Notes: generated by a model from the letters alone, not told the origin. A DNA stretch of 24,765 nucleotides from Bacteroidota bacterium (GCA_039033615.1 JBCCCJ010000001.1:1-24765), one strand, 5' to 3'; counted from the stretch's first letter, positions 4,804 through 21,422 are shown. Numbers and translations: made by a program.

Positions 4804-5967
4804 TCACCCAAACAACTCCCCCAATTGCTCCAGGCCAAGCACCCGCACTCCCTTAGAAAGGTCAAAGGATTGATCCACGGGACTGACCACGAATAGCCGC
4901 TCCACCCCTAAGTCTTCTTGAGCAATGAAGAAGCCTTTGCTGGGTTTGGGGGTCTGGCTGTATTTGATTTCGACCAAGATCTCGGGTTTCCCGCCTCGGG
5001 TGATGACCAAGTCTGCCTCCGTGCCCGTATGCGTGCGATAAAAATAGAGTTGCCCCCATTCTGGTAGGATGGCGGCAATCTGTTCGATCACGTAGTTTTC
5101 CCAAGAAGCACCAAGCATAGGGTGCCCACTGAGCTCGGCAAAAGAGGCAATGCCCAGCAACTGATGCAGGAGGCCAGTATCCCGCAGGTACAATTTGGGA
5201 GATTTGACCAGGCGTTTTTTCAGGTTGGTGAAAAAAGGGGGCAATCTGCGGATCAAATAGGCCGCTTCGAAGAAATCCAGGTATCGCTTGACGGTCGTCG
5301 CATGTACCCCTAAGGAACTCGCCAGGGTTTCCAATCGCAATAAATTGCCTGTGATGTGGGCACACATCTGCCACAATCGACTGGTCAGAATCGGGTTGGC
5401 TCCTAACCCCAAGGCAGGCAAATCCCGCTCCAGATAGGTTTGGATGAATTGCTGTCGCCACAAGCGGGACAAGGATTCATCAGGCGCAAGGAACGATTCC
5501 GGGAAGCCACCTCGCACCCAATGCTGACGGAAATCACCCAACGCCTTGACTTCTGACCAAACAAACGGAGGCAATTCATAAAAGCCGATTCGCCCTGCCA
5601 AAGTCTCAGAACTATCCCGAATCAAATCTGGAGAAGCTGAACCCAATAGGATGAATCGGCCAGGTCTTCGGTCTTGATCAATGATCCCTCGTAAAGCAGG
5701 AAACAGATGTGGAACTCGCTGTACTTCGTCCAACATCACGGTATAATCCGCATAGCGATCCAGAAAAAGCGCAGGTTGATCTAGCTTCGCAAGGTCCGCA
5801 GGATTTTCAAGGTCTAAATATAAGGATGGCCGATCCAACACCGCTTGCAAATGGCGCACCAACGAAGTTTTCCCCACTTGCCGAGGCCCCACAAGGGCTA
5901 CAGCGGGGAAGAAGGTCGCCCATGTGAGAATGGTTTCCGTGGCTTGGCGTGGGATGAATGTTTTCAT
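4804..5967 (-). CDS. AAA_14 family ATPase with DUF4143-type C-terminal domain (COG1373-like)
   Basis: 387 aa. Walker A GPRQVGKT, Walker B VMLDEVQ, FILLGS, GGFPE, HTH-like LASSLGVHATTVKRYL, KSPKLYLRDTGLL, and C-terminal EADLV...VEIK. Confidence 0.93.
   Translation of the reverse strand: MKTFIPRQATETILTWATFFPAVALVGPRQVGKTSLVRHLQAVLDRPSLYLDLENPADLAKLDQPALFLDRYADYTVMLDEVQRVPHLFPALRGIIDQDRRPGRFILLGSASPDLIRDSSETLAGRIGFYELPPFVWSEVKALGDFRQHWVRGGFPESFLAPDESLSRLWRQQFIQTYLERDLPALGLGANPILTSRLWQMCAHITGNLLRLETLASSLGVHATTVKRYLDFFEAAYLIRRLPPFFTNLKKRLVKSPKLYLRDTGLLHQLLGIASFAELSGHPMLGASWENYVIEQIAAILPEWGQLYFYRTHTGTEADLVITRGGKPEILVEIKYSQTPKPSKGFFIAQEDLGVERLFVVSPVDQSFDLSKGVRVLGLEQLGELFG
5798..5813. repeat. Intragenic copy of the upstream palindrome arm
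   Basis: GCAGGATTTTCAAGGT. 15 nt (5799-5813) are identical to 5993-6007, and 14 nt (5798-5811) are the reverse complement of 5971-5984. Confidence 0.85.
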
Positions 5968-5970
5968 AAG

Positions 5971-6015
5971 CTTGAAAATCCTGCATAAAATACAGGATTT
6001 TCAAGGTTAAGTCAA
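5971..6015 (-). promoter_or_regulatory. Putative promoter overlapped by a 13-bp-arm palindromic operator
   Basis: CTTGAAAATCCTG (5971-5983) N9 CAGGATTTTCAAG (5993-6005) is a perfect inverted repeat 3 nt upstream of the ATPase ATG. On the minus strand TTGACT (6015-6010) N17 TATTTT (5992-5987) straddles it. Confidence 0.65.
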
Positions 6016-6048
6016 CAGAATGGAAAGCCTAATCCTGCCTTTTCCATC

Positions 6049-6501
6049 TCATATCTCCAGAAAATACCGCTCCTTCGATTTCCCCTCTGCTCCAATCCTC
6101 TCGTAGAACTTCATTGCTCGCTGATTGAAGGCTGGCGTCTGCCACTGAATGAGACTGCAGCCGAGGGATTTACCTTCTTCTTGAATGCGTCGGATCAGTT
6201 GCTCGCCTATGCCGAGGCCGCGGGCTGCTTCCCGCAAAAAGAGGCAATCCATATAGAGATACTGCCCAGCGTCCCAGGTGGCAAACTGCTTCATATAGGT
6301 GGCGTAGCCGACAACTTCGCCTTCGACTTCTGCCACCAACGCATATAGAGCGGGCTGTTTTGCAAATAGATATTGGCGCAATCGCTCGGCCTTTCCGGCT
6401 GGGTCATAGGCAGCTTTTTCAAACTCGGCGTGCAGACCACAAAGCTCCACCAGCGTTTCGAGCTCTCCTTCCCGAATGAATCTGATCTGGACTTCCTTCA
6501 T
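6049..6501 (-). CDS. GNAT family N-acetyltransferase (diamine/PaiA-like)
   Basis: ~150 aa. ALVAEVEGEVVGYA, YLYMDCLFLREAARGLGIGEQL (acetyl-CoA motif A), WQTPAFNQRAMKFYERIG. Start is ATG 6501 or GTG 6504, overlapping the upstream stop. Confidence 0.93.
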   Translation of the reverse strand: MKEVQIRFIREGELETLVELCGLHAEFEKAAYDPAGKAERLRQYLFAKQPALYALVAEVEGEVVGYATYMKQFATWDAGQYLYMDCLFLREAARGLGIGEQLIRRIQEEGKSLGCSLIQWQTPAFNQRAMKFYERIGAEGKSKERYFLEI

Positions 6502-12015: not shown

Positions 12016-15000
12016 TCACTCTCCTCGCTTGGCCTCGGCTGGCAATGCCCCCCCCGTATCTGGATGCCAGACCCAATTGCCAGCTCGGTCCAAGTAGCCG
12101 ATATCATTGCCTCGGGTGAGTTTGTACAAGCCTTCCCGAAAGGTAATGCTTTCATATTCCGGCTCATAGCGCCAATTTCCCGCGTGAGTGAGAATCCCCA
12201 CCTTTTGATCGGTTTTCGCTAAAAAGCTCCCATCGGCCTGGACCTGCACATCGGTGTAGCCATAGCGATCCTCGATGACTTGTAGGATTTGCGCTTGAGC
12301 GGACAAAGCAGCCTGCCTGATGGGCCGCGGAGGCATGGCTTCTCTCACATCTACCTTCCGCCAAGCCGTACCATTCACATCCACCTTATCGACTTCAGCA
12401 ACCCCATATTCAAGCAAGCGAACGTCGATGTTTTCAAAAGGGATGATCGTCTGTCCGTTCGCATCTATGGCACCCCAGAATTTGAAATCACCTACTTGCT
12501 TGTAGGCAGCGCCCAAATGATACTGGAAAGACCTCGCCTGAAGAAAAGTCGCAGGGGTAATTTCTTTCATGTCTCTACTCAGATACCCAAAGCGATAGTC
12601 CGGCCCCCCTTTTTTGCCACGGTTCATATTGATTCGATACACTGCGACCCCATTCACAAACTTCCGGACCAGATCGTATTTGGGCGAAAGCAGGAATGTT
12701 CCCTTTGAATCGCAAAATCCGACCAAGCCCTTTTCAGTGGTGACTTGGAGGTATTCGCCGACCCAGCGAATCTCCTGATATTTGGGTGGCAAAGCCCATT
12801 TGCCGTTGGTTTGGAGGAGTCCGAATAACTTTTGGGGGTAGCGAGCGATGGCGACTCCCTGGCGAAAATTGGTGGCATCCATCAGTTGCAAGCCGATCAG
12901 CATGTCTCCATTCGGTAGCACATAGCCATAGCGTCGTTTGGCGCGAACCCGAGCCACGCCTTGGGAAAAGAGCTCCACCTGAGAGAAACGCGCAGAAATT
13001 GCCCATTCCCCTTTGCGGTTAATGAAGCCCCAGTAGCGGCCTTTTTTCGCAGGAGCGAGGCCTTCTTGAAAGTCCTTGACCTGATCAAAAGTCGGCGCAA
13101 TCATTTCTTGTCCCAAGGAATCCAGATAGCCCCATTTGCCATGGATCGCAAAAGCCATCATCCCTTCTGATTGAGGGCGTAACTCATCGGCATTGATGAC
13201 TCGCTGGAGGAGGCCTTGCTGATTGAGAAGGAAAAAGCGGCTACTCTGGATTTCCCCACAAAGTAAGGGAAGTAAGCTATCCGTAGGTTCCGTCCCCGTT
13301 TCAGGGAAAAAGAGTTGATCGAAGGTTGGCTTGATCACGGGTACAAATTTCTCGTTCAAGGCCCCCCATTTTCCATTCAATTCAAAGAGGCCCAAACCAG
13401 CAGCATAATTCTCGGCAAAGTCATAATCGGGCGTTTCGCTCCATTTGCCAGACCAGTGTAGATAGGTCCATGTTCCGGGCAGGCTGCGGGGGTCAAAACG
13501 AGGTTCTTCGCCGACAGCTTTGGGAATGGGCGCAAAGAGGTATCCCCTCCGACAAGCCCGGGCGATGCCTGCTTGAAAGGGACCGATGTAGCGGGTGAAT
13601 TCTGTTTTGCGAACGCTGCCCTTTCGACTGAGTAAAACAAAAGCTCCACCGGGAAACTGAGCCCTGGCAACGGGCAGGTCTTCAAAATCCTGGATATAAA
13701 TCATCCCAAAGCGCAGGGGCTGAATGAGTTTTCCCAGGCGGTGGTCAAACAGGCCGAGGCGGTTTTGGAACAGGGTACCTCCGGTCTCTGGGTCGATGCT
13801 CCGCCGGGTACGGCCCACCACAGAAATCTCGTATTGCGGCACCGGATAGACCTCGTGAAAGGTTGGCCCGTAGCGGAGGCTGTCTCCCACGCTATCTGTC
13901 CACACCCAACGGATGGTATCCTCTGGTTGCAGCATTGACATGGCATCTACAATTCGCCTTTCCCAGCCAACTTGTCGAGGATCACTCTCCCAAAATTTCG
14001 AAGCGATCGAATCAGAAAGGATTGCTATCTGGGAGGTATCGGTCTTGGTCTGTTGCTGGCGAATCAAGAGTCGCTTTCTAGGCACAAAGCGACCTTGTTT
14101 GTCATATGCGATCTGGGTCCAGATATCGTCTTTCAGGATGCGAGCCACTCCTGGATAGATTTCGATTCGATCGCAATCTAGGTCAGATAGGAAGTCTCCA
14201 AATTGGTTGATCAGAGCGGTTTTCCCTTCTACCACGACCTTGCCCACTGCTCCTTCAAAAAGTCCCCGGCGGGTAAAGGTCGGTTCGATTCGCCAACTCC
14301 CACTGCTGTCCATCAGTCCCCATAAGCGATCTTCCTGCATCCAGAATAGGTCGTGTTCTTCTGGCACAATTTGGCGATAGCGAAGGTCAGCGATCATTCT
14401 GCCATCCTCATGGAGCAGGCCATACAAAGAATTGTCTTCCACCAATAGATAGTCGCCGCTTTCTGCCAGGCTCCAGTTGCCCAAAGGCAGCACTTCGGAG
14501 CTATCCAAGCGGATCAAACGCTGTTGGTCCTGTTCCCCCGGTATCATCAGGAGATCTGACCCCATGATTCTAGGCAGACTGGCCAATCCGCTTAGGTGCT
14601 GCTGGCCCAGGGTATCCCAGACTTCAAACCCTTGCTCTACTGCCCCTACCAATAGTCCCGCTTTGAACTGCTCAATAGAGAAAAAACGCGGGAGAATCAC
14701 CGGGGCTTTTCCTGCCTGGATCAAGCCCCAATAGTTCTGCTGTTTCATGCCGAAAAAGCGATCCTGCAAGGGAAGCAAATCTTGGTACTGAGCGGGAAAT
14801 ACCTGACTGGTATCTATTCTTCTCATGCCCACCCATCCATTTTCCTGGTATCGAATCACATATTCCCCATGGGCCTCCACCAAAGAAAGCGCATGATAGA
14901 TCGGGGCCAGAATTTCCCCTTTCCCTTGCTGATACAGCCCCAGGTGATCCGCTTGTTGGATGAGGAACAGGCCGGAGGTGGCGCTGTCGGGAATGGCTGG

Positions 15001-15156
15001 ATACATGAAATCATACTGAGGTGGCACCACCACTTGCCCCAATCGGTCCATGAAGCCCCAGCGGCCATCCGATTGAATTTCGAAGAGTTGCGCCTGGGCC
15101 CAACATGGCAGACAGCAACAGACAAGCAAGTAACAAAGGATCCGATTCATGGACAT
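12016..15156 (-). CDS. Secreted WG-repeat protein (paralogue A, 1046 aa)
   Basis: Signal peptide ending AQA|QLFEI. Many G[KR]WG[FY][IL][DN]..G..[IV]I.P.[FY]D repeats (WG_beta_rep/KWG-type). Confidence 0.92.
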   Translation of the reverse strand: MSMNRILCYLLVCCCLPCWAQAQLFEIQSDGRWGFMDRLGQVVVPPQYDFMYPAIPDSATSGLFLIQQADHLGLYQQGKGEILAPIYHALSLVEAHGEYVIRYQENGWVGMRRIDTSQVFPAQYQDLLPLQDRFFGMKQQNYWGLIQAGKAPVILPRFFSIEQFKAGLLVGAVEQGFEVWDTLGQQHLSGLASLPRIMGSDLLMIPGEQDQQRLIRLDSSEVLPLGNWSLAESGDYLLVEDNSLYGLLHEDGRMIADLRYRQIVPEEHDLFWMQEDRLWGLMDSSGSWRIEPTFTRRGLFEGAVGKVVVEGKTALINQFGDFLSDLDCDRIEIYPGVARILKDDIWTQIAYDKQGRFVPRKRLLIRQQQTKTDTSQIAILSDSIASKFWESDPRQVGWERRIVDAMSMLQPEDTIRWVWTDSVGDSLRYGPTFHEVYPVPQYEISVVGRTRRSIDPETGGTLFQNRLGLFDHRLGKLIQPLRFGMIYIQDFEDLPVARAQFPGGAFVLLSRKGSVRKTEFTRYIGPFQAGIARACRRGYLFAPIPKAVGEEPRFDPRSLPGTWTYLHWSGKWSETPDYDFAENYAAGLGLFELNGKWGALNEKFVPVIKPTFDQLFFPETGTEPTDSLLPLLCGEIQSSRFFLLNQQGLLQRVINADELRPQSEGMMAFAIHGKWGYLDSLGQEMIAPTFDQVKDFQEGLAPAKKGRYWGFINRKGEWAISARFSQVELFSQGVARVRAKRRYGYVLPNGDMLIGLQLMDATNFRQGVAIARYPQKLFGLLQTNGKWALPPKYQEIRWVGEYLQVTTEKGLVGFCDSKGTFLLSPKYDLVRKFVNGVAVYRINMNRGKKGGPDYRFGYLSRDMKEITPATFLQARSFQYHLGAAYKQVGDFKFWGAIDANGQTIIPFENIDVRLLEYGVAEVDKVDVNGTAWRKVDVREAMPPRPIRQAALSAQAQILQVIEDRYGYTDVQVQADGSFLAKTDQKVGILTHAGNWRYEPEYESITFREGLYKLTRGNDIGYLDRAGNWVWHPDTGGALPAEAKRGE

Positions 15157-15165
15157 GCGTAAGAG

Positions 15166-18100
15166 TTATCGGTTGAGCGGAATGGGATAGACCCATGTGC
15201 CTTGGGAATTGAGGTAGCCAATGTTGCCATCCAAGATGACCTGATAGAGGCCGTCTCGATAGTGAATTTGTTCAAACATGGGCGAAAAGAGGACTTCTCC
15301 CCGTTCATTGACCAAGCCTAGCAATTGATTGCAGGTAGCAACGACCATGTCTTCACTCGGGGGATGGACTTCGTCATAGCCAAAGATTTCTTGTAGTTCC
15401 TCGGACAAGTCTGGCGCTTCTACTGTTGCAAGGGGGCGAGGGGGCATCTGACTTCTGAGGTCCAGCACTTCCCAACGCTCCCGTTTCTTGTTCAAGACCT
15501 TGACCTTGGCGTAATCTAGCACCACCAAGTCATCGAATTTCATCGGCAGAATGGTATCCCCCTCCAGGTTCAACAAGCCCCATTTGCCCTGGCTTTTGAC
15601 GGCGGCCATGCTGTGTTTGTAAGGGCGAACCCGTTGGAAAGTAGGCGGAGCGATGATCTGAAAATTGGTGTCGATGATGCCCCAGCCACTTTGCTGGAGG
15701 ATGCGAGAGCGCCCTGCTACAAATCGCTCACTGATCAGGCGATAGCGGGGTTCCAGGACGGGCTCTCCCGCCAGATTGAAGTAGCCATATAGGCCTTTTC
15801 GCTTCACCCGAAAAAACTCGCCTCTTCTCCACACCCCGGCGTAGCGAGCGGGGATGAGCCAATTCCCATCGGTATCAATCACGCCTTTCCACCCAGCGCC
15901 GCGTGCGATGGCCCGCCCCTGATAAAAATCTTCCGCCCGCTGAAAACGAGGTCGGATGTGCCAGGCTCCCGTTCGGTTCAAGAAGCCATATTTGCCTTTG
16001 ATTTTGACGCGGGCGATCCCATCTACAAAATCTCCAGCCTGGTGGTAGATGGGCTCGATCTGATATTCTCCCTTCGGATCAATGTAGCCCCATCGCATGC
16101 GGCGCCGTACCCGCGCCAGCCCATCCACAAAGCTGCCCGCCCGATCAAACTGCGGCTGAACCACCAGCTTACCGACCTGATCCAAATAACCCCATTTGCC
16201 CGCGTACTTGACGGCCACCAAGCCCCCTTCAAAATCCTGACTCTCCTCATAGAGGCGGGAAAACTGCACGTTGCCCGTCATATCCAGGTAGAAAATCTTC
16301 TTTTGCCGCTGCTGAACAATGATCATACGAGTGGTATCTGCGGAATCACTGGCTTGCTCTGCCGGACCGGAAGCGAGAATGGCATCATACATTGGGGGGA
16401 TCATTTCCTCAAAACTGGTATCCACAGCTCCCCATTTGCCTTTGAATTGGAACGCCCCAAACCCATTGGAAAATGGTTTCACTGCTTCATACTTCGCCGG
16501 GAGGCCCCATTGTCCCCATTCGGTGAGGTAGCCCCATTGAGCGCGATAGGCCGTTTGAACCTCGGGCTTGCCACTCACCACTTTGGGGAGAGGAAGGTAA
16601 ATCATGGATTGACAGGCAGAGGCAATGCCATCTACCATGGGTCCGATGAAGGCGGTTTTTTTGATGGGAAAAATCGAGCCCCGGCGATCAATCAGGGTAA
16701 AGGCTCCGGTAACGAACTGAGCCCTGGCCACCCGCGAACTGGCAAAATCATCCATGTAGATGACGTTGATGTATTGATCGGGCCGGACCAATAAGCGGCC
16801 TTGCCGATGATCCACCAAGGCACACTGGCGATTCTCCACCTTGCCAGGCTCAAAAATCGCCATGGTAAGGCCTAATTCGGGATATACGAATACGTCGCTA
16901 TACTCAGGTCGAATCCGTACTCGTCGGCTGGAATCTCGCCATCCCCAGAGTCTTCGACGGTTGAGAAACCACCCATAATCGCGGGGATCAACTTCCTGGT
17001 CCAGGCTGAGGTCTTCCTCGATTTCTGCTAAGTCTTCGTCTGTTTTCTTCTGGACAATCAACCTTCGACGGAAAGCAAGAAGGCCTTCTTCTGTCAACGG
17101 GACTTGTTTCCACAGGGTGTCATTCCATACCAAAGCAGTCCTGCCCAATAGTTTCACCTCTCGATAAATGGGTTCAACCACCTTTTCTCCAAACTGATTG
17201 ATGACGCCCATGCGTCGGTCTTTTCTAACCACCGCGGCATTCCCCTGGAAATTGCCCTTGCTATTCCATTCGATCTCACTCAGCCAATTTCCTTTTTGGT
17301 CCATAATGCCCCATCTGAAATTTTCTTCCATCCAGATGCGGCGGGTCCGATCAATGTGAAGGTTGGCATACTCGGCTTCCAGGAATTGAGTTCCCTTCAA
17401 ACTGTACAACCCAAGGTTGGTATCTCGGCCGATGCTTCGCTGAACATACAGATACCCGCGATCTATCCAGGTAGTATCAAAAATGGGTGGGGTAATCACC
17501 TGCCCAGTGGAATCCAATAAGCCCTCTAACAATTCGGGGACTTCTGGAGCAGTTCCGTTCAGTTGAGCGATAGAATCTGCTGCAATCTCCCATTGGTTGC
17601 GCAGGCTATCGGGCAGGGGGTCCTGGTAAGCGAGGGTCCAAGGCGTCAAAAAACGAATGCTGGCTTCCAGGTTTTGCACGATAGGCTCCCCTTGAGGATT
17701 CCAAGCGGAGTACCAATCGCCTTGCCAGCCAACGATGAAACTATCCAGATACACCCGAAAATCTTCGTATTCTGCCGGAATGGAGAACCCCAACTCTGGT
17801 GCCCATACGCCCCAATTTCCATTCTCTTGACAGCTATATACCTGAGATCGCAAAGCCCGAATTGCCGTAAATCGAGGCGCAATCAATTCCGTCCCCAGGG
17901 TATCCAGCAGACCAATTTTCCCATCTAGCTGGATTTCAATGTATCCGCCTAACGCTTCTGAAAGATGGACCCGAAGCCGATCATATTGGGGGGGGACAAC
18001 AATGCCGCGATCCTGATGATACATGCCCATCTTCCCATCCTGGAGAAACGCGAAATAGCCCGCTTCTTGATCGGAATAGTCTTCGCTACTGTAGATGAAA

Positions 18101-18264
18101 TCAAAGGTCGGAGGAACCACTTCCTCGCCGGAGGAATTGATGAATCCCCACCGATCGCCCGATTTGATTTCGAACAATTGGGCCTGAACAAGCAGGGGAA
18201 ATGAGACCAGCGAGAAGCACAGCCAGCTTCGAAACAGATGAGGCATAACTAGAGACATATTCAT
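15166..18264 (-). CDS. Secreted WG-repeat protein (paralogue B, 1032 aa)
   Basis: Signal peptide ending VQA|QLFEI, WG repeats throughout. ATGA overlap with paralogue C and a 9-nt gap to paralogue A. Confidence 0.92.
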   Translation of the reverse strand: MNMSLVMPHLFRSWLCFSLVSFPLLVQAQLFEIKSGDRWGFINSSGEEVVPPTFDFIYSSEDYSDQEAGYFAFLQDGKMGMYHQDRGIVVPPQYDRLRVHLSEALGGYIEIQLDGKIGLLDTLGTELIAPRFTAIRALRSQVYSCQENGNWGVWAPELGFSIPAEYEDFRVYLDSFIVGWQGDWYSAWNPQGEPIVQNLEASIRFLTPWTLAYQDPLPDSLRNQWEIAADSIAQLNGTAPEVPELLEGLLDSTGQVITPPIFDTTWIDRGYLYVQRSIGRDTNLGLYSLKGTQFLEAEYANLHIDRTRRIWMEENFRWGIMDQKGNWLSEIEWNSKGNFQGNAAVVRKDRRMGVINQFGEKVVEPIYREVKLLGRTALVWNDTLWKQVPLTEEGLLAFRRRLIVQKKTDEDLAEIEEDLSLDQEVDPRDYGWFLNRRRLWGWRDSSRRVRIRPEYSDVFVYPELGLTMAIFEPGKVENRQCALVDHRQGRLLVRPDQYINVIYMDDFASSRVARAQFVTGAFTLIDRRGSIFPIKKTAFIGPMVDGIASACQSMIYLPLPKVVSGKPEVQTAYRAQWGYLTEWGQWGLPAKYEAVKPFSNGFGAFQFKGKWGAVDTSFEEMIPPMYDAILASGPAEQASDSADTTRMIIVQQRQKKIFYLDMTGNVQFSRLYEESQDFEGGLVAVKYAGKWGYLDQVGKLVVQPQFDRAGSFVDGLARVRRRMRWGYIDPKGEYQIEPIYHQAGDFVDGIARVKIKGKYGFLNRTGAWHIRPRFQRAEDFYQGRAIARGAGWKGVIDTDGNWLIPARYAGVWRRGEFFRVKRKGLYGYFNLAGEPVLEPRYRLISERFVAGRSRILQQSGWGIIDTNFQIIAPPTFQRVRPYKHSMAAVKSQGKWGLLNLEGDTILPMKFDDLVVLDYAKVKVLNKKRERWEVLDLRSQMPPRPLATVEAPDLSEELQEIFGYDEVHPPSEDMVVATCNQLLGLVNERGEVLFSPMFEQIHYRDGLYQVILDGNIGYLNSQGTWVYPIPLNR

Positions 18265-21200
18265 TCACTCAGCAGGCGAACCCATTGCAATTGTTCGTTG
18301 AGGTAGCCGACCTGATTGTGGTGGATCACTTGGTACAAGCCATTGCGAAAACGGATGTGCTCGTAGGTAGGGGGGAGGACAATTTCCCCTTTTCGGTTGA
18401 CCAGACCACACAGCTTTTGGGAGGCCCCCACGATGACTTCCGAACTGATGGCGGAGATTCGGTCAAAGCCAGGCACCACAATGGGCGTTCCTATGGGATC
18501 CAGGACGATGGTCATCCCTTCCAGGCTAGCGGTAGCGAATCGGGTTCGAGGGTATTTCTGGACAGATTCAAAGCGTTGGTTGGCGCGAGGCACCCCAAAT
18601 CGATCGCGGTATTCCCAGGTTTGGCGTTTGGTTTCGGGATCACGGGTGCGGCAACCGAGCCATTGCTCCGAGACCCATTCGATGCGCTCATATTCCAGAG
18701 GGATGAGGGTGTCGCCTGCTTGATTGATCAGGCCATAGCGAAGCGGTTTTCCGGCTCCGACGATGGCGACTCCCTGTTGGAACGCACCCGCCCGAGCGTA
18801 TCGAAAGCGGATGGCAACCTTGTCCTGCTCGTTGAGGTAGCCCCATTTGCGGTCTTTGCGGACCGCAGCCAAGCCTTCTGAAAAAGGTTCTGCCGACCGA
18901 TAGCTTGGTTCGATCAACACTTCTCCCCCGCGTTGGAGATAGCCCCATTGTTGGTCTTGCTGAAACGGGACCTTTCCCTCTCCTACTCCTCCCAAGCGGT
19001 GGTTGCCCATCGGGATTGCCCACTCGCCTTCGGCATCCAGATAGCCTTGCTGATTCTGCCCTTTGACGTAGATCCAATCGGCTCGGCGTTCGATTCGTTG
19101 ATATTTGGGTTTGAGCAAATAGCTCCCATCGGCATCTAGGAGGCCCATTTTCTTTTTGCGCACAATCGCCAGCCCATTTTTGCGATCTTCGATATTGATG
19201 TATCGGGCTTTGACGGCCCATTTGCCTTGCGCATTGAGGTAGCCCCAACGCTTTCCTTTTCGAGCAGCTGCCCAGCCTTCTTGAAAGGTCCGGACCCTTC
19301 GATAGCGATTTTTGATCTGCGACTCCCCTCGCTGGTCGATGAATCCCCAATTCCGTCGCACTTTTACGGGGGCCAATCCTTCGGCAAAAGGCTGAACCGC
19401 GGCGAAAGTCGGGGGGATGATGACTGCTCCTTTTTCATCCATGAAGCCCCACAGCTTTCCCAACCTGACTGGCAGTTTCCCTTCCTGAAAGGTTCCGACC
19501 GCATTCACATAGCGCTGCTGCCCCCCCTCCGCCAAGGAATCAGAGAGCTTTTCAAAGAGAAACTTCCCTTCGATGTCTAGGAAGGTGAATTTGTAACCGT
19601 GTAGGTGGGAAATTAATAGAGGGGACTCCAATCCATGATCGATGAGATTCATATATTGCGCTGGCAGCAGTTCTTTTCCTTGGTCGCCCAGCAGCCCCCA
19701 CAATTCATTGGTTCGGAAGGCGGCAGCCCCATCAGAAAACGGTCCGATATAGCTCGCGCTGGTGATTCTGCGTTCTCCATTGGGTAAAATGAGGCCCCAC
19801 CGTCCGTTGATGTTGCGCAAGGCCCCTTCGTCCGTCAATTGGTCGGAAGTGAGGGGTTCTTTGAGCTTCCTTCCCACCTGAAAGCGGTAGATGCTGTCGC
19901 TGGGAGCAGAGATCGCATTCACAAAACGCTGGCCGTCGAAGGCTAGGGATATTTCGCCAGGACCGCGCCCCCGTCTTCCATATGGATCCAGCAGCTCATA
20001 CACGGATGAGGGAAGTTTGGCCCGGAGAAAATTACTTCGCTCCAAATCCTCCACCATCATTTGCTCATAGCTGACAGAAAACATGAGATTCACGCTGCGA
20101 TGATGGAACAAGCCGTAGCGGGCCCGGCTTGGATACCTGGTGTTGAGGCCCACGATGCTGAATTCGTGTTGGGGATACACCCGAACCGAGTCATAGCGTG
20201 GCTTGAGGCGCAGACGTCCAACAATGGTATCGCGAATGCCCCATTTCCCCCGGCGCTGAAACCACCCATATTCCTGATACAGGTCTCGCTGACTGCTTTC
20301 GGAGCGGGTACGCAAAAATTTGTAAGCCGAGGCACTTTCGGCAATGATGAGCTTTCGCCTCCGAATGGGGTTCCCTGCTTCGTCGAAACGAAACTGTTTC
20401 ATACTGGTGTCCTTGTAGGCCCGTACCATGCCCGGATAAATCTGGAGGAATTCGTATTCCAGCGGTACGATGGTATCTCCCTGTCGATTGATGACACCGT
20501 ATGCCTCCGTATTTCGGATGCGGGAGACCGGACCTTCAAAAAATCCTGGCGCATCATAGGTCGGGGGAAAAACGGGTTCCCCTTCTGGCGATAGGAGTCC
20601 CCACCTTTCTCCATCCGAAAACCAAATGTGTCCACTGGTGTCTATGCGAATATTGCGGTAGGCAAAATCCAGCAGGGTATCTCCTTGGGGCGACAATATG
20701 CCCCAGCGAACATTGGCGCGAGCTTTGAAAAATGGCCCCAGGGGAAGCAAATGGTCATAAGCAGCCGGCGTAACGGGCGTATTTCCTTTCCCCAATATGC
20801 CCCAGTTGTTTCGATCCTGATACAAAAAAACGCCCTGACTCCAACGTTTGATGTGGACGGGTGCGGCTTCGATCAGGCGTTCTCCCTGCTGATTCCAAAC
20901 ATGAGATCGCCCCTCAAGGTCTAGCCCAACGATGAGGGTTTCTGCTGCTTTTTTTAGGTAAAAAATCCTCCGGTATTTCACAGGTAAGGACCACTCATTG
21001 GTCAGGTGGCGAAGTCCCCACCGCTTTCCTTTTCGCAGGCTTACACAGCCAGGAAACAGGAGGTCAATTGCATCGTACTCAGCGGGAATGTTTTGGTTGT
21101 CTTCGGGGCGAAGGAGGCCATATTTCCCTTCGATGACAATTTTGAGGCTACGCTCATCATCGGGTTCGAGGAAAATCTGATCGTATTTGGGGGGAAGAAT

Positions 21201-21422
21201 TTCCCCCAGGTCGATGTGGTACAGGCCCGTTTTGCCTCCCTTTTGGGTAAGGAAGTAACGGGAATCCTCCGAGGGATAGAGATAGTCAAAGGTTGGTTCC
21301 AACACGACCCGCCCGGTTCGGTCCATCAAGCCCCATTGATTGTTGGCTTTGATTTCATAGAGCTGAGCCAATGCAGATGCCGGACAGAAGAATAAGAGAA
21401 GAGCGTAAGCAAGGAGTCGCAT
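18261..21422 (-). CDS. Secreted WG-repeat protein (paralogue C, 1053 aa)
   Basis: Signal peptide ending ALA|QLYEI, WG repeats throughout, same C-terminal GLY..V...[IV]GYL...W motif as A and B. Confidence 0.92.
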   Translation of the reverse strand: MRLLAYALLLFFCPASALAQLYEIKANNQWGLMDRTGRVVLEPTFDYLYPSEDSRYFLTQKGGKTGLYHIDLGEILPPKYDQIFLEPDDERSLKIVIEGKYGLLRPEDNQNIPAEYDAIDLLFPGCVSLRKGKRWGLRHLTNEWSLPVKYRRIFYLKKAAETLIVGLDLEGRSHVWNQQGERLIEAAPVHIKRWSQGVFLYQDRNNWGILGKGNTPVTPAAYDHLLPLGPFFKARANVRWGILSPQGDTLLDFAYRNIRIDTSGHIWFSDGERWGLLSPEGEPVFPPTYDAPGFFEGPVSRIRNTEAYGVINRQGDTIVPLEYEFLQIYPGMVRAYKDTSMKQFRFDEAGNPIRRRKLIIAESASAYKFLRTRSESSQRDLYQEYGWFQRRGKWGIRDTIVGRLRLKPRYDSVRVYPQHEFSIVGLNTRYPSRARYGLFHHRSVNLMFSVSYEQMMVEDLERSNFLRAKLPSSVYELLDPYGRRGRGPGEISLAFDGQRFVNAISAPSDSIYRFQVGRKLKEPLTSDQLTDEGALRNINGRWGLILPNGERRITSASYIGPFSDGAAAFRTNELWGLLGDQGKELLPAQYMNLIDHGLESPLLISHLHGYKFTFLDIEGKFLFEKLSDSLAEGGQQRYVNAVGTFQEGKLPVRLGKLWGFMDEKGAVIIPPTFAAVQPFAEGLAPVKVRRNWGFIDQRGESQIKNRYRRVRTFQEGWAAARKGKRWGYLNAQGKWAVKARYINIEDRKNGLAIVRKKKMGLLDADGSYLLKPKYQRIERRADWIYVKGQNQQGYLDAEGEWAIPMGNHRLGGVGEGKVPFQQDQQWGYLQRGGEVLIEPSYRSAEPFSEGLAAVRKDRKWGYLNEQDKVAIRFRYARAGAFQQGVAIVGAGKPLRYGLINQAGDTLIPLEYERIEWVSEQWLGCRTRDPETKRQTWEYRDRFGVPRANQRFESVQKYPRTRFATASLEGMTIVLDPIGTPIVVPGFDRISAISSEVIVGASQKLCGLVNRKGEIVLPPTYEHIRFRNGLYQVIHHNQVGYLNEQLQWVRLLSE

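What the first reader, a model, noticed from the sequence alone, without database searches (positions are those of the whole stretch)
5798..6015. Perfect operator palindrome with a third exact arm inside the ATPase coding sequence
A 13-bp-arm palindrome overlaps a TTGACT-N17-TATTTT promoter-like sequence just upstream of the ATG. The same arm recurs exactly (15 nt direct, 14 nt inverted) about 155 nt into the gene, encoding L53-E-N-P-A of the YLDLENP motif. Such a match within 200 bp is very unlikely by chance. Model 1: autoregulation by the protein's HTH with an auxiliary intragenic operator and DNA looping. Model 2: the short 5' UTR (CAGGAUUUUCAAG) pairs with codons 53-57 and controls translation. 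I know of no described mechanism of this kind for this family.
Basis: partly seen in the sequence, partly recalled or inferred. Interest (0 to 1): 0.7.

Follow-up and report, generated by a model that had tools for sequence, protein, structure and literature searches.

The report
Self-operator palindrome plus intragenic half-site
An uncharacterised ATPase-nuclease gene of a marine Bacteroidota bacterium carries the promoter palindrome typical of its family, and in this lineage only a third exact copy of one arm lies on conserved codons inside the gene, probably as a dispensable extra docking site.

Summary
Two perfect 13-bp arms (6005-5993 and 5983-5971) flank a TATTTT box just before the ATG (5967). 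The distal arm recurs exactly at 5813-5799, on codons D52-A57 of an AAA_14/DUF4143 (PADLOC PDC-S01) gene. The 13-mer occurs nowhere else in the 7.15-Mb assembly.

The palindrome is not special to this gene. 83 of 152 non-redundant relatives from many phyla have a strong palindrome before the start codon, against 0 of 152 shuffled controls. Its arm mismatches show no G-U bias, so it is a DNA element. This scan has noted such "self-operators" of this family on other DNA many times; I found no paper on them.

The third copy is not a family feature. A codon-shuffle test gives 6 of 151 loci at p<=0.05, with about 7.5 expected, and four of the six are this clade. About 10 of the 15 bases are forced by the conserved D-L-E-N-P-A residues. 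Within the clade the copy is still kept at synonymous sites that are otherwise saturated: DLENP is the most codon-conserved window of the gene, and the contrast with other operator types gives p about 0.001. Two close relatives lost it.

Best reading: an optional auxiliary half-site for the gene's own protein. Rivals are 5'UTR-coding RNA pairing and template-switch homogenisation. Interest is moderate.

The parts
4804..5967 (-). AAA_14 / DUF4143 ATPase-wHTH-nuclease gene (387 aa, P0001), PADLOC candidate PDC-S01
   Evidence: ORF. Pfam AAA_14 93.8 bits and DUF4143 154.7 bits. PADLOC PDC-S01 at 4e-89. AF2 model with pLDDT 90 showing AAA+, winged helix and an alpha-beta-beta-beta-alpha-beta C-terminal domain.
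6010..6015 (-). -35/-33-like TTGACT directly upstream of the distal arm
   Evidence: Promoter scan. A TTG-containing box sits at the same place in 7 of the 8 clade members. Its function is inferred.
5993..6007 (-). Distal (5') arm of the operator palindrome, 15 nt, lying between the two promoter boxes
   Evidence: position -40 in all 8 clade members.
5984..5992 (-). AT-rich centre TATTTTATG holding the -10/-7-like box (TATTTT)
   Evidence: A TAnnnT-type centre is kept in all clade members.
5971..5984 (-). Proximal (3') arm, 14 nt with the flanking G. It probably covers the transcription start and the short 5' UTR, and it is the inverted partner of the intragenic copy.
   Evidence: inverted pair I2. 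(position -16 in all clade members). The start site is inferred, not mapped.
5798..5813 (-). Intragenic third copy (15 nt identical to the distal arm, 14 nt complementary to the proximal arm) on codons D52-L-E-N-P-A57
   Evidence: It is kept at +154 in L012 and L013 (15/15), L174 (14/15) and L010/L177 (13/15). It is lost in L011 and L179.

Best explanation
The palindrome is this gene's version of the promoter-embedded, gene-private operator that accompanies AAA_14/DUF4143 (PDC-S01) ATPase-nuclease genes across bacteria. Its two arms bracket the -10/-7 box and reach the start codon. The gene's own product, through its winged helix, most likely binds there as a symmetric dimer or oligomer and shuts off its own promoter. 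That step is inferred.

The third copy exists because in this lineage the half-site sequence happens to be compatible with the conserved codons D-L-E-N-P-A. Ten of its 15 bases are fixed by the protein. The five free synonymous positions are held in the matching state in several lineages. I read the copy as an optional auxiliary half-site for the same protein, about 172-194 bp downstream of the main arms. It would strengthen autorepression by cooperative binding with looping, or by blocking elongation. That too is inferred. It is dispensable, because close relatives with the same operator have lost it.
For: Shown:
- The three copies are exact and unique in the genome.
- The palindrome is a family-wide feature: 83 of 152 loci score 10 or more, against 0 of 152 shuffled. 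Sequence similarity to relatives stops just upstream of the -35-like box, so promoter, palindrome and gene form one unit.
- Each paralogue has a private sequence.
- Arm mismatches show no strand bias: 10 G:T-type against 12 A:C-type. The element is therefore DNA, not an RNA hairpin.
- The AF2 model shows a helix-turn-helix with a wing at about residues 192-262, and the nearest solved folds are 2qen, 2fna and Orc1/Cdc6.

Third copy:
- L009 and L012 share only 37% of codons at conserved residues, against a random baseline of 0.34. Yet their only fully identical 6-codon window out of 81 is DLENPA.
- DLENP ranks first of 60 windows for codon conservation over five lineages, 0.76 against a mean of 0.43.
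- The per-lineage synonymous test gives p of 0.013-0.02 for L013, L012 and L174.
- Genes encoding DLENP match the arm at 13-15 of 15 positions when they have this operator (n=6), and at 9-14 of 15 when they have another (n=23). Mann-Whitney p is 2.5e-4, or 1.4e-3 without the discovery locus and its near duplicate.
Against: - No binding, expression or start-site data exist.
- The internal site is a single half-site with no partner arm nearby, unlike lac O2 or gal OI.
- L011 and L179 keep the operator but have lost the copy through N55R and A57S/A, and L010/L177 carry two synonymous changes. Any function is therefore non-essential.
- No other clade and no paralogue has an intragenic copy.
- The clade has only six to eight sequences, from about five lineages, and kin are not independent.
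- The internal copy is more conserved than the arms at positions 11-13, which a weak auxiliary site does not predict.
Confidence: 0.4

Rival explanations
1. RNA model. Transcription starts at the beginning of the proximal arm, so the 5' UTR is the arm itself. It pairs with codons 52-57 in a 14-bp long-range helix that hides the leader. Bacteroidota lack Shine-Dalgarno sequences and tune initiation by mRNA structure, so this would throttle translation until a ribosome or another factor opens the helix.
For: A transcript starting at 5984 folds with this helix in both the minimum-energy and the centroid structures. Bacteroidetes initiation is reported to depend on mRNA secondary structure rather than Shine-Dalgarno pairing (PMC6847099, found). 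In L177 the proximal arm carries a change that turns a G-U into an A-U against its own internal copy. The nucleotide-level constraint on the internal copy fits this model as well as the DNA model.
Against: The whole-fold z-score is only -1.17. The start site is unmapped. With the usual spacing after a -7 box, the RNA would begin 3-5 nt inside the arm. That would leave about 10 bp and leave unexplained the invariant T of the CCT codon. L013 and L174 carry uncompensated mismatches (A-C, and two adjacent ones). In L009 and L012 the internal copy matches the untranscribed distal arm better than the proximal arm. If read-through from the upstream gene includes both arms, the local hairpin wins.
Confidence: 0.17
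2. No function. The operator half-site and the DLENPA codons resemble each other by historical accident. Short-range template switching or gene conversion between the three nearby copies (194 bp direct, 159 bp inverted) keeps them alike.
For: Most of the identity is forced by the protein motif. The feature is absent from the rest of the family and from paralogues and is lost in two close relatives. L177 shares one private variant between its proximal arm and its internal copy. Earlier notes of this scan on other gene families invoke the same template-switch mechanism for coding palindromes (unverified).
Against: The arms carry private changes in nearly every lineage that are not copied into the internal site. 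In L013 both arms deviate while the internal copy stays at the consensus. Conversion from the arms is therefore not frequent. Pure chance is disfavoured by the replicate lineages: combined p is about 0.008 without the discovery locus.
Confidence: 0.3
3. Intragenic inverton. The 14-nt inverted repeat (5798-5811 and 5971-5984) flanks an invertible 159-bp segment holding the start codon and codons 1-52. Flipping it would give phase-variable loss of the protein or an alternative N-terminus.
For: The segment is exactly 53 codons long. The + strand ORF 5845-5988 would run in frame into codon 53 after inversion. Intragenic invertons are described in Bacteroidota (PMC10028968).
Against: The inverted repeat is simply one operator arm plus its copy. 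All eight relatives are in the same orientation. I made no search for a recombinase gene. Only the source contig was available and it shows no inverted form, which is not informative. An antisense ORF of 47 codons is unremarkable.
Confidence: 0.03

Closest known systems
AAA_14 / DUF4143 ATPases (COG1373; PADLOC phage-defence candidate PDC-S01) and their upstream 'self-operator' palindromes or arrays, as noted earlier in this scan
   Same: The domain architecture and HMM matches are the same. The palindrome is gene-private, sits on the promoter and abuts the start codon, as in most relatives.
   Different: This clade has one palindrome rather than a phased array. It adds a half-site inside the coding sequence, which I found in no other clade. 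No member of the family has been studied experimentally in the papers I could search. DUF4143 is listed only as a PD-(D/E)XK family of unknown function (PMC3424549).
Auxiliary intragenic operators and roadblocks: lac O2 inside lacZ, gal OI inside galE, PurR at purB (He and Zalkin 1992, cited in PMC10310618)
   Same: A copy of the promoter operator lies inside the transcribed or coding region, overlapping codons, within looping distance (about 170-190 bp).
   Different: Here the copy is only a half-site. The presumed binder is an AAA+ ATPase-nuclease rather than a LacI/GalR-type repressor. Binding is untested, and the site is dispensable in close relatives. The details of lac and gal are recalled from my own knowledge.
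Long-range 5' UTR to coding-region pairing that limits translation (fold-back inhibition of IS10 transposase and hok mRNAs; structure-tuned initiation in Bacteroidetes, PMC6847099)
   Same: There is 14 nt of perfect complementarity between the presumed leader and codons 52-57, and it is predicted in the minimum-energy fold.
   Different: No start-site data exist, there is no clear compensatory covariation, and the fold z-score is weak. The IS10 and hok examples are recalled from my own knowledge.
Archaeal AAA+ ATPases with a winged helix (PDB 2qen PAB2304, 2fna SSO1545) and Orc1/Cdc6
   Same: These are the nearest solved folds for the ATPase plus winged-helix part (TM about 0.5).
   Different: There is no detectable sequence relationship to any PDB chain. 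Those proteins lack the C-terminal PD-(D/E)XK domain.

Membership tests
AAA_14 / DUF4143 (COG1373, PDC-S01) | Pfam AAA_14 and DUF4143 domains above the gathering score | tested here: met
   93.8 bits (cut-off 27) and 154.7 bits (cut-off 28.1).
AAA_14 / DUF4143 (COG1373, PDC-S01) | Walker A (GPRQVGKT) and Walker B (hhhhDE) motifs | tested here: met
   G27-T34 and D80-E81 are invariant in 33 relatives.
AAA_14 / DUF4143 (COG1373, PDC-S01) | C-terminal PD-(D/E)XK nuclease core (D ... E-x-K on an alpha-beta-beta-beta-alpha-beta fold) | tested here: met
   D319 is invariant, and E333 and K335 are nearly invariant. The predicted strands 305-334 are flanked by helices. Weak fold matches to Can2/Cdn1 appear. 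The family is listed in PMC3424549. Nuclease activity is not testable here.
AAA_14 / DUF4143 (COG1373, PDC-S01) | Match to the PADLOC PDC-S01 models | tested here: met
   PDLC04790 at 4.3e-89.
AAA_14 / DUF4143 (COG1373, PDC-S01) | Anti-phage activity | not testable with these tools
   This is a candidate status only. The window context is housekeeping genes, not a defence island.
Autoregulatory promoter-overlapping palindromic operator | Inverted repeat overlapping the core promoter and the start of the gene | tested here: met
Autoregulatory promoter-overlapping palindromic operator | The element travels with the gene, independently of its neighbours, and is private to it | tested here: met
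Autoregulatory promoter-overlapping palindromic operator | DNA-type symmetry, not an RNA hairpin | tested here: met
   10 G:T-type mismatches against 12 A:C-type. There is no Rfam match.
Autoregulatory promoter-overlapping palindromic operator | The gene product binds the site and represses its own promoter | not testable with these tools
Auxiliary intragenic operator (lac O2 / gal OI / purB type) | A complete operator (both half-sites) at the second place | tested here: not met
   there is a single arm at +154 and no partner with 4 or fewer mismatches within -400 to +1200.
Auxiliary intragenic operator (lac O2 / gal OI / purB type) | Constraint on the site beyond what the protein sequence needs | tested here: met
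Auxiliary intragenic operator (lac O2 / gal OI / purB type) | The site is kept wherever the primary operator is kept | tested here: inconclusive
   Six of the eight clade sequences keep 13 or more of 15 positions. L011 and L179 lost the copy.
5' UTR-CDS fold-back pairing | The leader is transcribed and pairs with the internal copy, with compensatory changes | tested here: inconclusive
   The pairing is predicted. There is one G-U to A-U change in L177, but uncompensated mismatches in L013 and L174. No RNA run was listed.
Intragenic inverton | Both orientations present in a population | tested here: inconclusive
   Only assembled contigs of the source run were available, and they show one orientation.

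The most novel reading that the evidence does not exclude
The AAA+-winged-helix-nuclease protein of the very common, untested PDC-S01 family binds three half-sites at once: two on its promoter and one on codons 52-57. It would loop or block about 170-190 bp of its own 5' region, possibly in an ATP-dependent way. In that case a protein-coding motif (DLENPA) would double as a regulatory DNA word for the protein it encodes.
Probability: 0.25. Interest if true: 0.65.

Novelty: new variant of a known kind. Interest (0 to 1): 0.45.

Why it matters
DUF4143/PDC-S01 genes are among the commonest uncharacterised ATPase-nuclease genes in bacteria and archaea, often with 10-15 copies per genome, and no member has a known function or DNA target.

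A conserved, gene-private palindrome on the promoter gives a concrete sequence to test for binding. This clade also offers a natural experiment, because close relatives share the operator but differ in having or lacking an internal half-site. That could show whether the protein binds half-sites cooperatively.

The case is also a caution. An exact 15-nt repeat that looks astronomically unlikely is two-thirds dictated by a conserved peptide motif.

Tried and rejected
- **Dispersed repeat or MITE:** rejected. The 13-mer occurs only at this locus, and the 41 one-mismatch hits lie in unrelated coding contexts. The C981 look-alike lies inside another gene.
- **Known RNA family:** no Rfam match in 5600-6200 at E<=1.
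- **Partial tandem duplication of the 5' gene region as the source of the upstream arm:** I compared the flanks by eye. They are only about 41% alike in L009 and unlike in L012, so I dropped this.
- **Internal promoter before the copy (TATATTTA in L009):** it is not conserved in relatives (codon table), so I dropped this.
- **Expression and start-site data:** no RNA holder is listed for this DNA.
- **Inverted or deleted variants:** Read laying returned only the source contig, with no joints, which is uninformative.
- **More clade members:** the DNA of P0038 and P0055 could not be fetched because the sample files were too large. The genome and metagenome scans yielded only five species-level members.
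- **Sequence relatives with solved structures:** none.
- **First run of the codon-shuffle script:** it timed out and I re-ran it in optimised form.

Full report
**1. What is there**

The gene on the minus strand at 4804-5967 encodes a 387-aa protein. It has Pfam AAA_14 and DUF4143 domains and matches the PADLOC phage-defence candidate PDC-S01 at 4e-89. Titles of the closest public loci place the genome in Bacteroidota, Saprospiraceae-like. The assembly is a 7.15-Mb, 86%-complete MAG from a marine metagenome.

Reading the gene strand, the order is:
- TTGACT (6015-6010)
- a 15-nt distal arm (6007-5993)
- the centre TATTTTATG (5992-5984)
- the proximal arm CAGGATTTTCAAG (5983-5971)
- CTT, then ATG (5967)

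The distal arm recurs exactly at 5813-5799. With one more base, the copy is the perfect 14-nt complement of the proximal arm (5798-5811 against 5971-5984). It covers codons D52 to A57.

**2. Is it chance or a dispersed repeat?**

The 13-mer occurs three times in the whole assembly, all at this locus. The one-mismatch hits lie in unrelated coding contexts. I kept the protein and the gene's codon usage and permuted synonymous codons. An exact match of 15 nt or more between the 60 nt upstream and the CDS then arises in 26 of 4000 trials. The coincidence is therefore real but much less extreme than it looks, because about 10 of the 15 bases are fixed by the conserved residues D-L-E-N-P-A.

**3. 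The palindrome is a family feature**

I collected about 170 homologous loci: 61 relatives' genomes, the GTDB genome scan, the metagenome scan, and contigs encoding close proteins.

- Of 152 non-redundant loci, 83 have an inverted repeat scoring 10 or more in the 80 nt before the start codon, against 0 of 152 shuffled controls.
- In Bacteroidota the repeat abuts or overlaps the ATG, with the outer half-site CCTTG-N-AAAT. In Proteobacteria, Acidobacteriota, Verrucomicrobiota, Gemmatimonadota and others it ends 10-17 nt before the start, with the outer half-site CCATGAAAWT.
- The inner positions differ from clade to clade and from paralogue to paralogue. Both arms change together; for example both arms of L011 carry the same G-to-A change.
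- The four paralogues in this genome have their own palindromes or direct repeats.
- Arm mismatches that would be G-U in the sense RNA (10) are no more common than those that would be G-U in the antisense (12). The symmetry is therefore a property of double-stranded DNA, not of an RNA hairpin. There is no Rfam match.
- Within the close clade, similarity to relatives begins at the -35-like TTG box and not before. Promoter, palindrome and gene form one unit.

An AlphaFold model (pLDDT 90) shows three parts: an AAA+ domain; a helical region with a helix-turn-helix and two wing strands (about residues 192-262); and a C-terminal alpha-beta-beta-beta-alpha-beta domain carrying D319 and E333-x-K335. 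The nearest solved folds are the archaeal ATPases 2qen and 2fna, Orc1/Cdc6 and RuvB.

The most economical reading is that the protein binds its own promoter. Binding itself is inferred. Earlier notes of this scan reached the same reading on many other genomes (609 notes). I found no publication on it. DUF4143 appears in print only as a PD-(D/E)XK family of unknown function (PMC3424549).

**4. The third copy is not a family feature**

- A codon-shuffle test of the longest exact match between the upstream region and the CDS gives 6 of 151 loci at p<=0.05, where about 7.5 are expected. Four of the six are the window's own clade, at the same site.
- A mismatch-tolerant test restricted to the D-L-E site gives 5 of 148, and the top four are again this clade.
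- The paralogues in the same genome have no such copy.
Most other operator sequences could not be written into the D-L-E-x-P codons at all.

**5. Within the clade the copy is kept**

Eight sequences, from about five lineages, share this operator. The arms are at -40 and -16 and the site is at +154 in all of them. Matches of the internal site to the arm consensus are:

| Locus | Protein identity to the window gene | Match (of 15) |
|---|---|---|
| L009 (window) | 100% | 15 |
| L012 | 73% | 15 |
| L013 | 72% | 15 |
| L174 | 83% | 14 |
| L010 / L177 | 83-84% | 13 |
| L011 / L179 (motif changed to LERP) | 81-82% | about 8-10 (counted by eye) |

Synonymous sites are close to saturation. Codon identity at conserved residues is 0.37-0.41 between L009 and the others, against 0.29-0.34 for random positions.

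- The only fully identical 6-codon window of 81 between L009 and L012 is DLENPA.
- Over five lineages, DLENP is the most codon-conserved of 60 windows, 0.76 against a mean of 0.43.
- Among 29 non-redundant genes that encode DLENP, the six with this operator match the arm at 13-15 of 15 positions, and the 23 with other operators at 9-14. Mann-Whitney p is 2.5e-4, or 1.4e-3 without the discovery locus and its near duplicate.
- Combining the per-lineage p values without the discovery locus gives about 0.008.
- Kin are not fully independent and the sample is small. I take this as moderate evidence for a nucleotide-level force on the internal copy, tied to this operator sequence.

**6. What that force could be**

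*(a) A DNA half-site for the same protein, my preferred reading at about 0.4.* The copy equals the half-site consensus even where both arms have drifted (L013). Its most telling synonymous base is the T of CCT, which corresponds to an arm position that is invariant in all 16 arms. The distance of 172-194 bp suits looping, and a bound protein at +154 could also act as a roadblock, as PurR does at purB (PMC10310618). Against this reading: it is only a half-site, it is dispensable, and it is better conserved than the arms at positions 11-13.

*(b) RNA pairing of the short leader with codons 52-57, about 0.17.* The pairing is predicted in the minimum-energy and centroid folds if transcription starts at 5984. 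It is plausible in a phylum that tunes initiation by mRNA structure (PMC6847099). However, the z-score is -1.17, the start site is unknown, and L013 and L174 carry uncompensated mismatches.

*(c) No function, about 0.3.* Template switching or conversion among three nearby copies would keep them alike. Against this, private arm variants are not copied into the internal site.

*(d) An intragenic inverton, about 0.03.* The inverted repeat flanks exactly 53 codons, and a + strand ORF (5845-5988) would continue in frame after inversion (PMC10028968). There is no evidence of a flipped form (uninformative), and all relatives are collinear.

**7. Verdict**

The auxiliary-site part is a lineage-restricted, dispensable addition with moderate statistical support and no experimental test. 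It is a new variant of a classical arrangement (a promoter operator plus an internal operator) in a protein family whose biology is unknown.

Noticed in passing
own genome contigs C458, C676, C288 (G000), about 70 nt before each paralogue's ATG: Each paralogous AAA_14/DUF4143 gene has its own element at the start codon. C458 has a perfect palindrome with arms of about 22 bp. C676 has a 12-bp-arm palindrome plus a partial third copy. C288 has three direct 23-nt repeats. None has an intragenic copy.
   Followed up: partly
L051-L168 (Proteobacteria, Acidobacteriota, Verrucomicrobiota, Gemmatimonadota, Armatimonadota and other loci): The outer half-site CCATGAAAWT ... AWTTTCATGG is conserved across phyla at 42-50% protein identity, ending 10-17 nt before the start codon. 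The inner positions vary but stay complementary.
   Followed up: partly
protein P0055 (relative at 73% identity, 330 aa; contigs not retrievable): This relative's called ORF starts at about residue 61, just after the internal copy, and lies only 47 nt from the upstream gene. A deletion between the 15-nt direct repeats (194 bp apart) would give such a product, but I could not check this.
   Followed up: no
window 5812-5970 and + strand ORF 5845-5988: The segment between the 14-nt inverted repeats is exactly 159 nt (53 codons). The antisense ORF would read in frame into codon 53 if the segment were inverted. No inverted form was seen in the only contig available.
   Followed up: partly
L058, 12 nt at about +152 of the CDS and in the spacer between palindrome and start: A gammaproteobacterial homologue has a 12-nt inverted match between its upstream spacer and the same D-L-E-E-P-A-S region (p about 0.05 among 151 loci). 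It is probably chance.
   Followed up: no
L018, start of the CDS: A 19-nt inverted match runs across the called start codon, so the palindrome overlaps the first codons or the start is miscalled.
   Followed up: no
window 12016-21422 (-): Three tandem genes of about 1030-1050 aa lie here. The one I scanned carries WG_beta_rep repeats. The rest of the window is housekeeping or metabolic (SSF symporter, S41 peptidase, sulfatase, GNAT), not a defence island.
   Followed up: no
window 5963-5991 (+): The AT-rich centre of the palindrome also gives a promoter-like match on the opposite strand, TTCATA-17-TAAAAT. This is a trivial result of the symmetry, or a divergent promoter.
   Followed up: no
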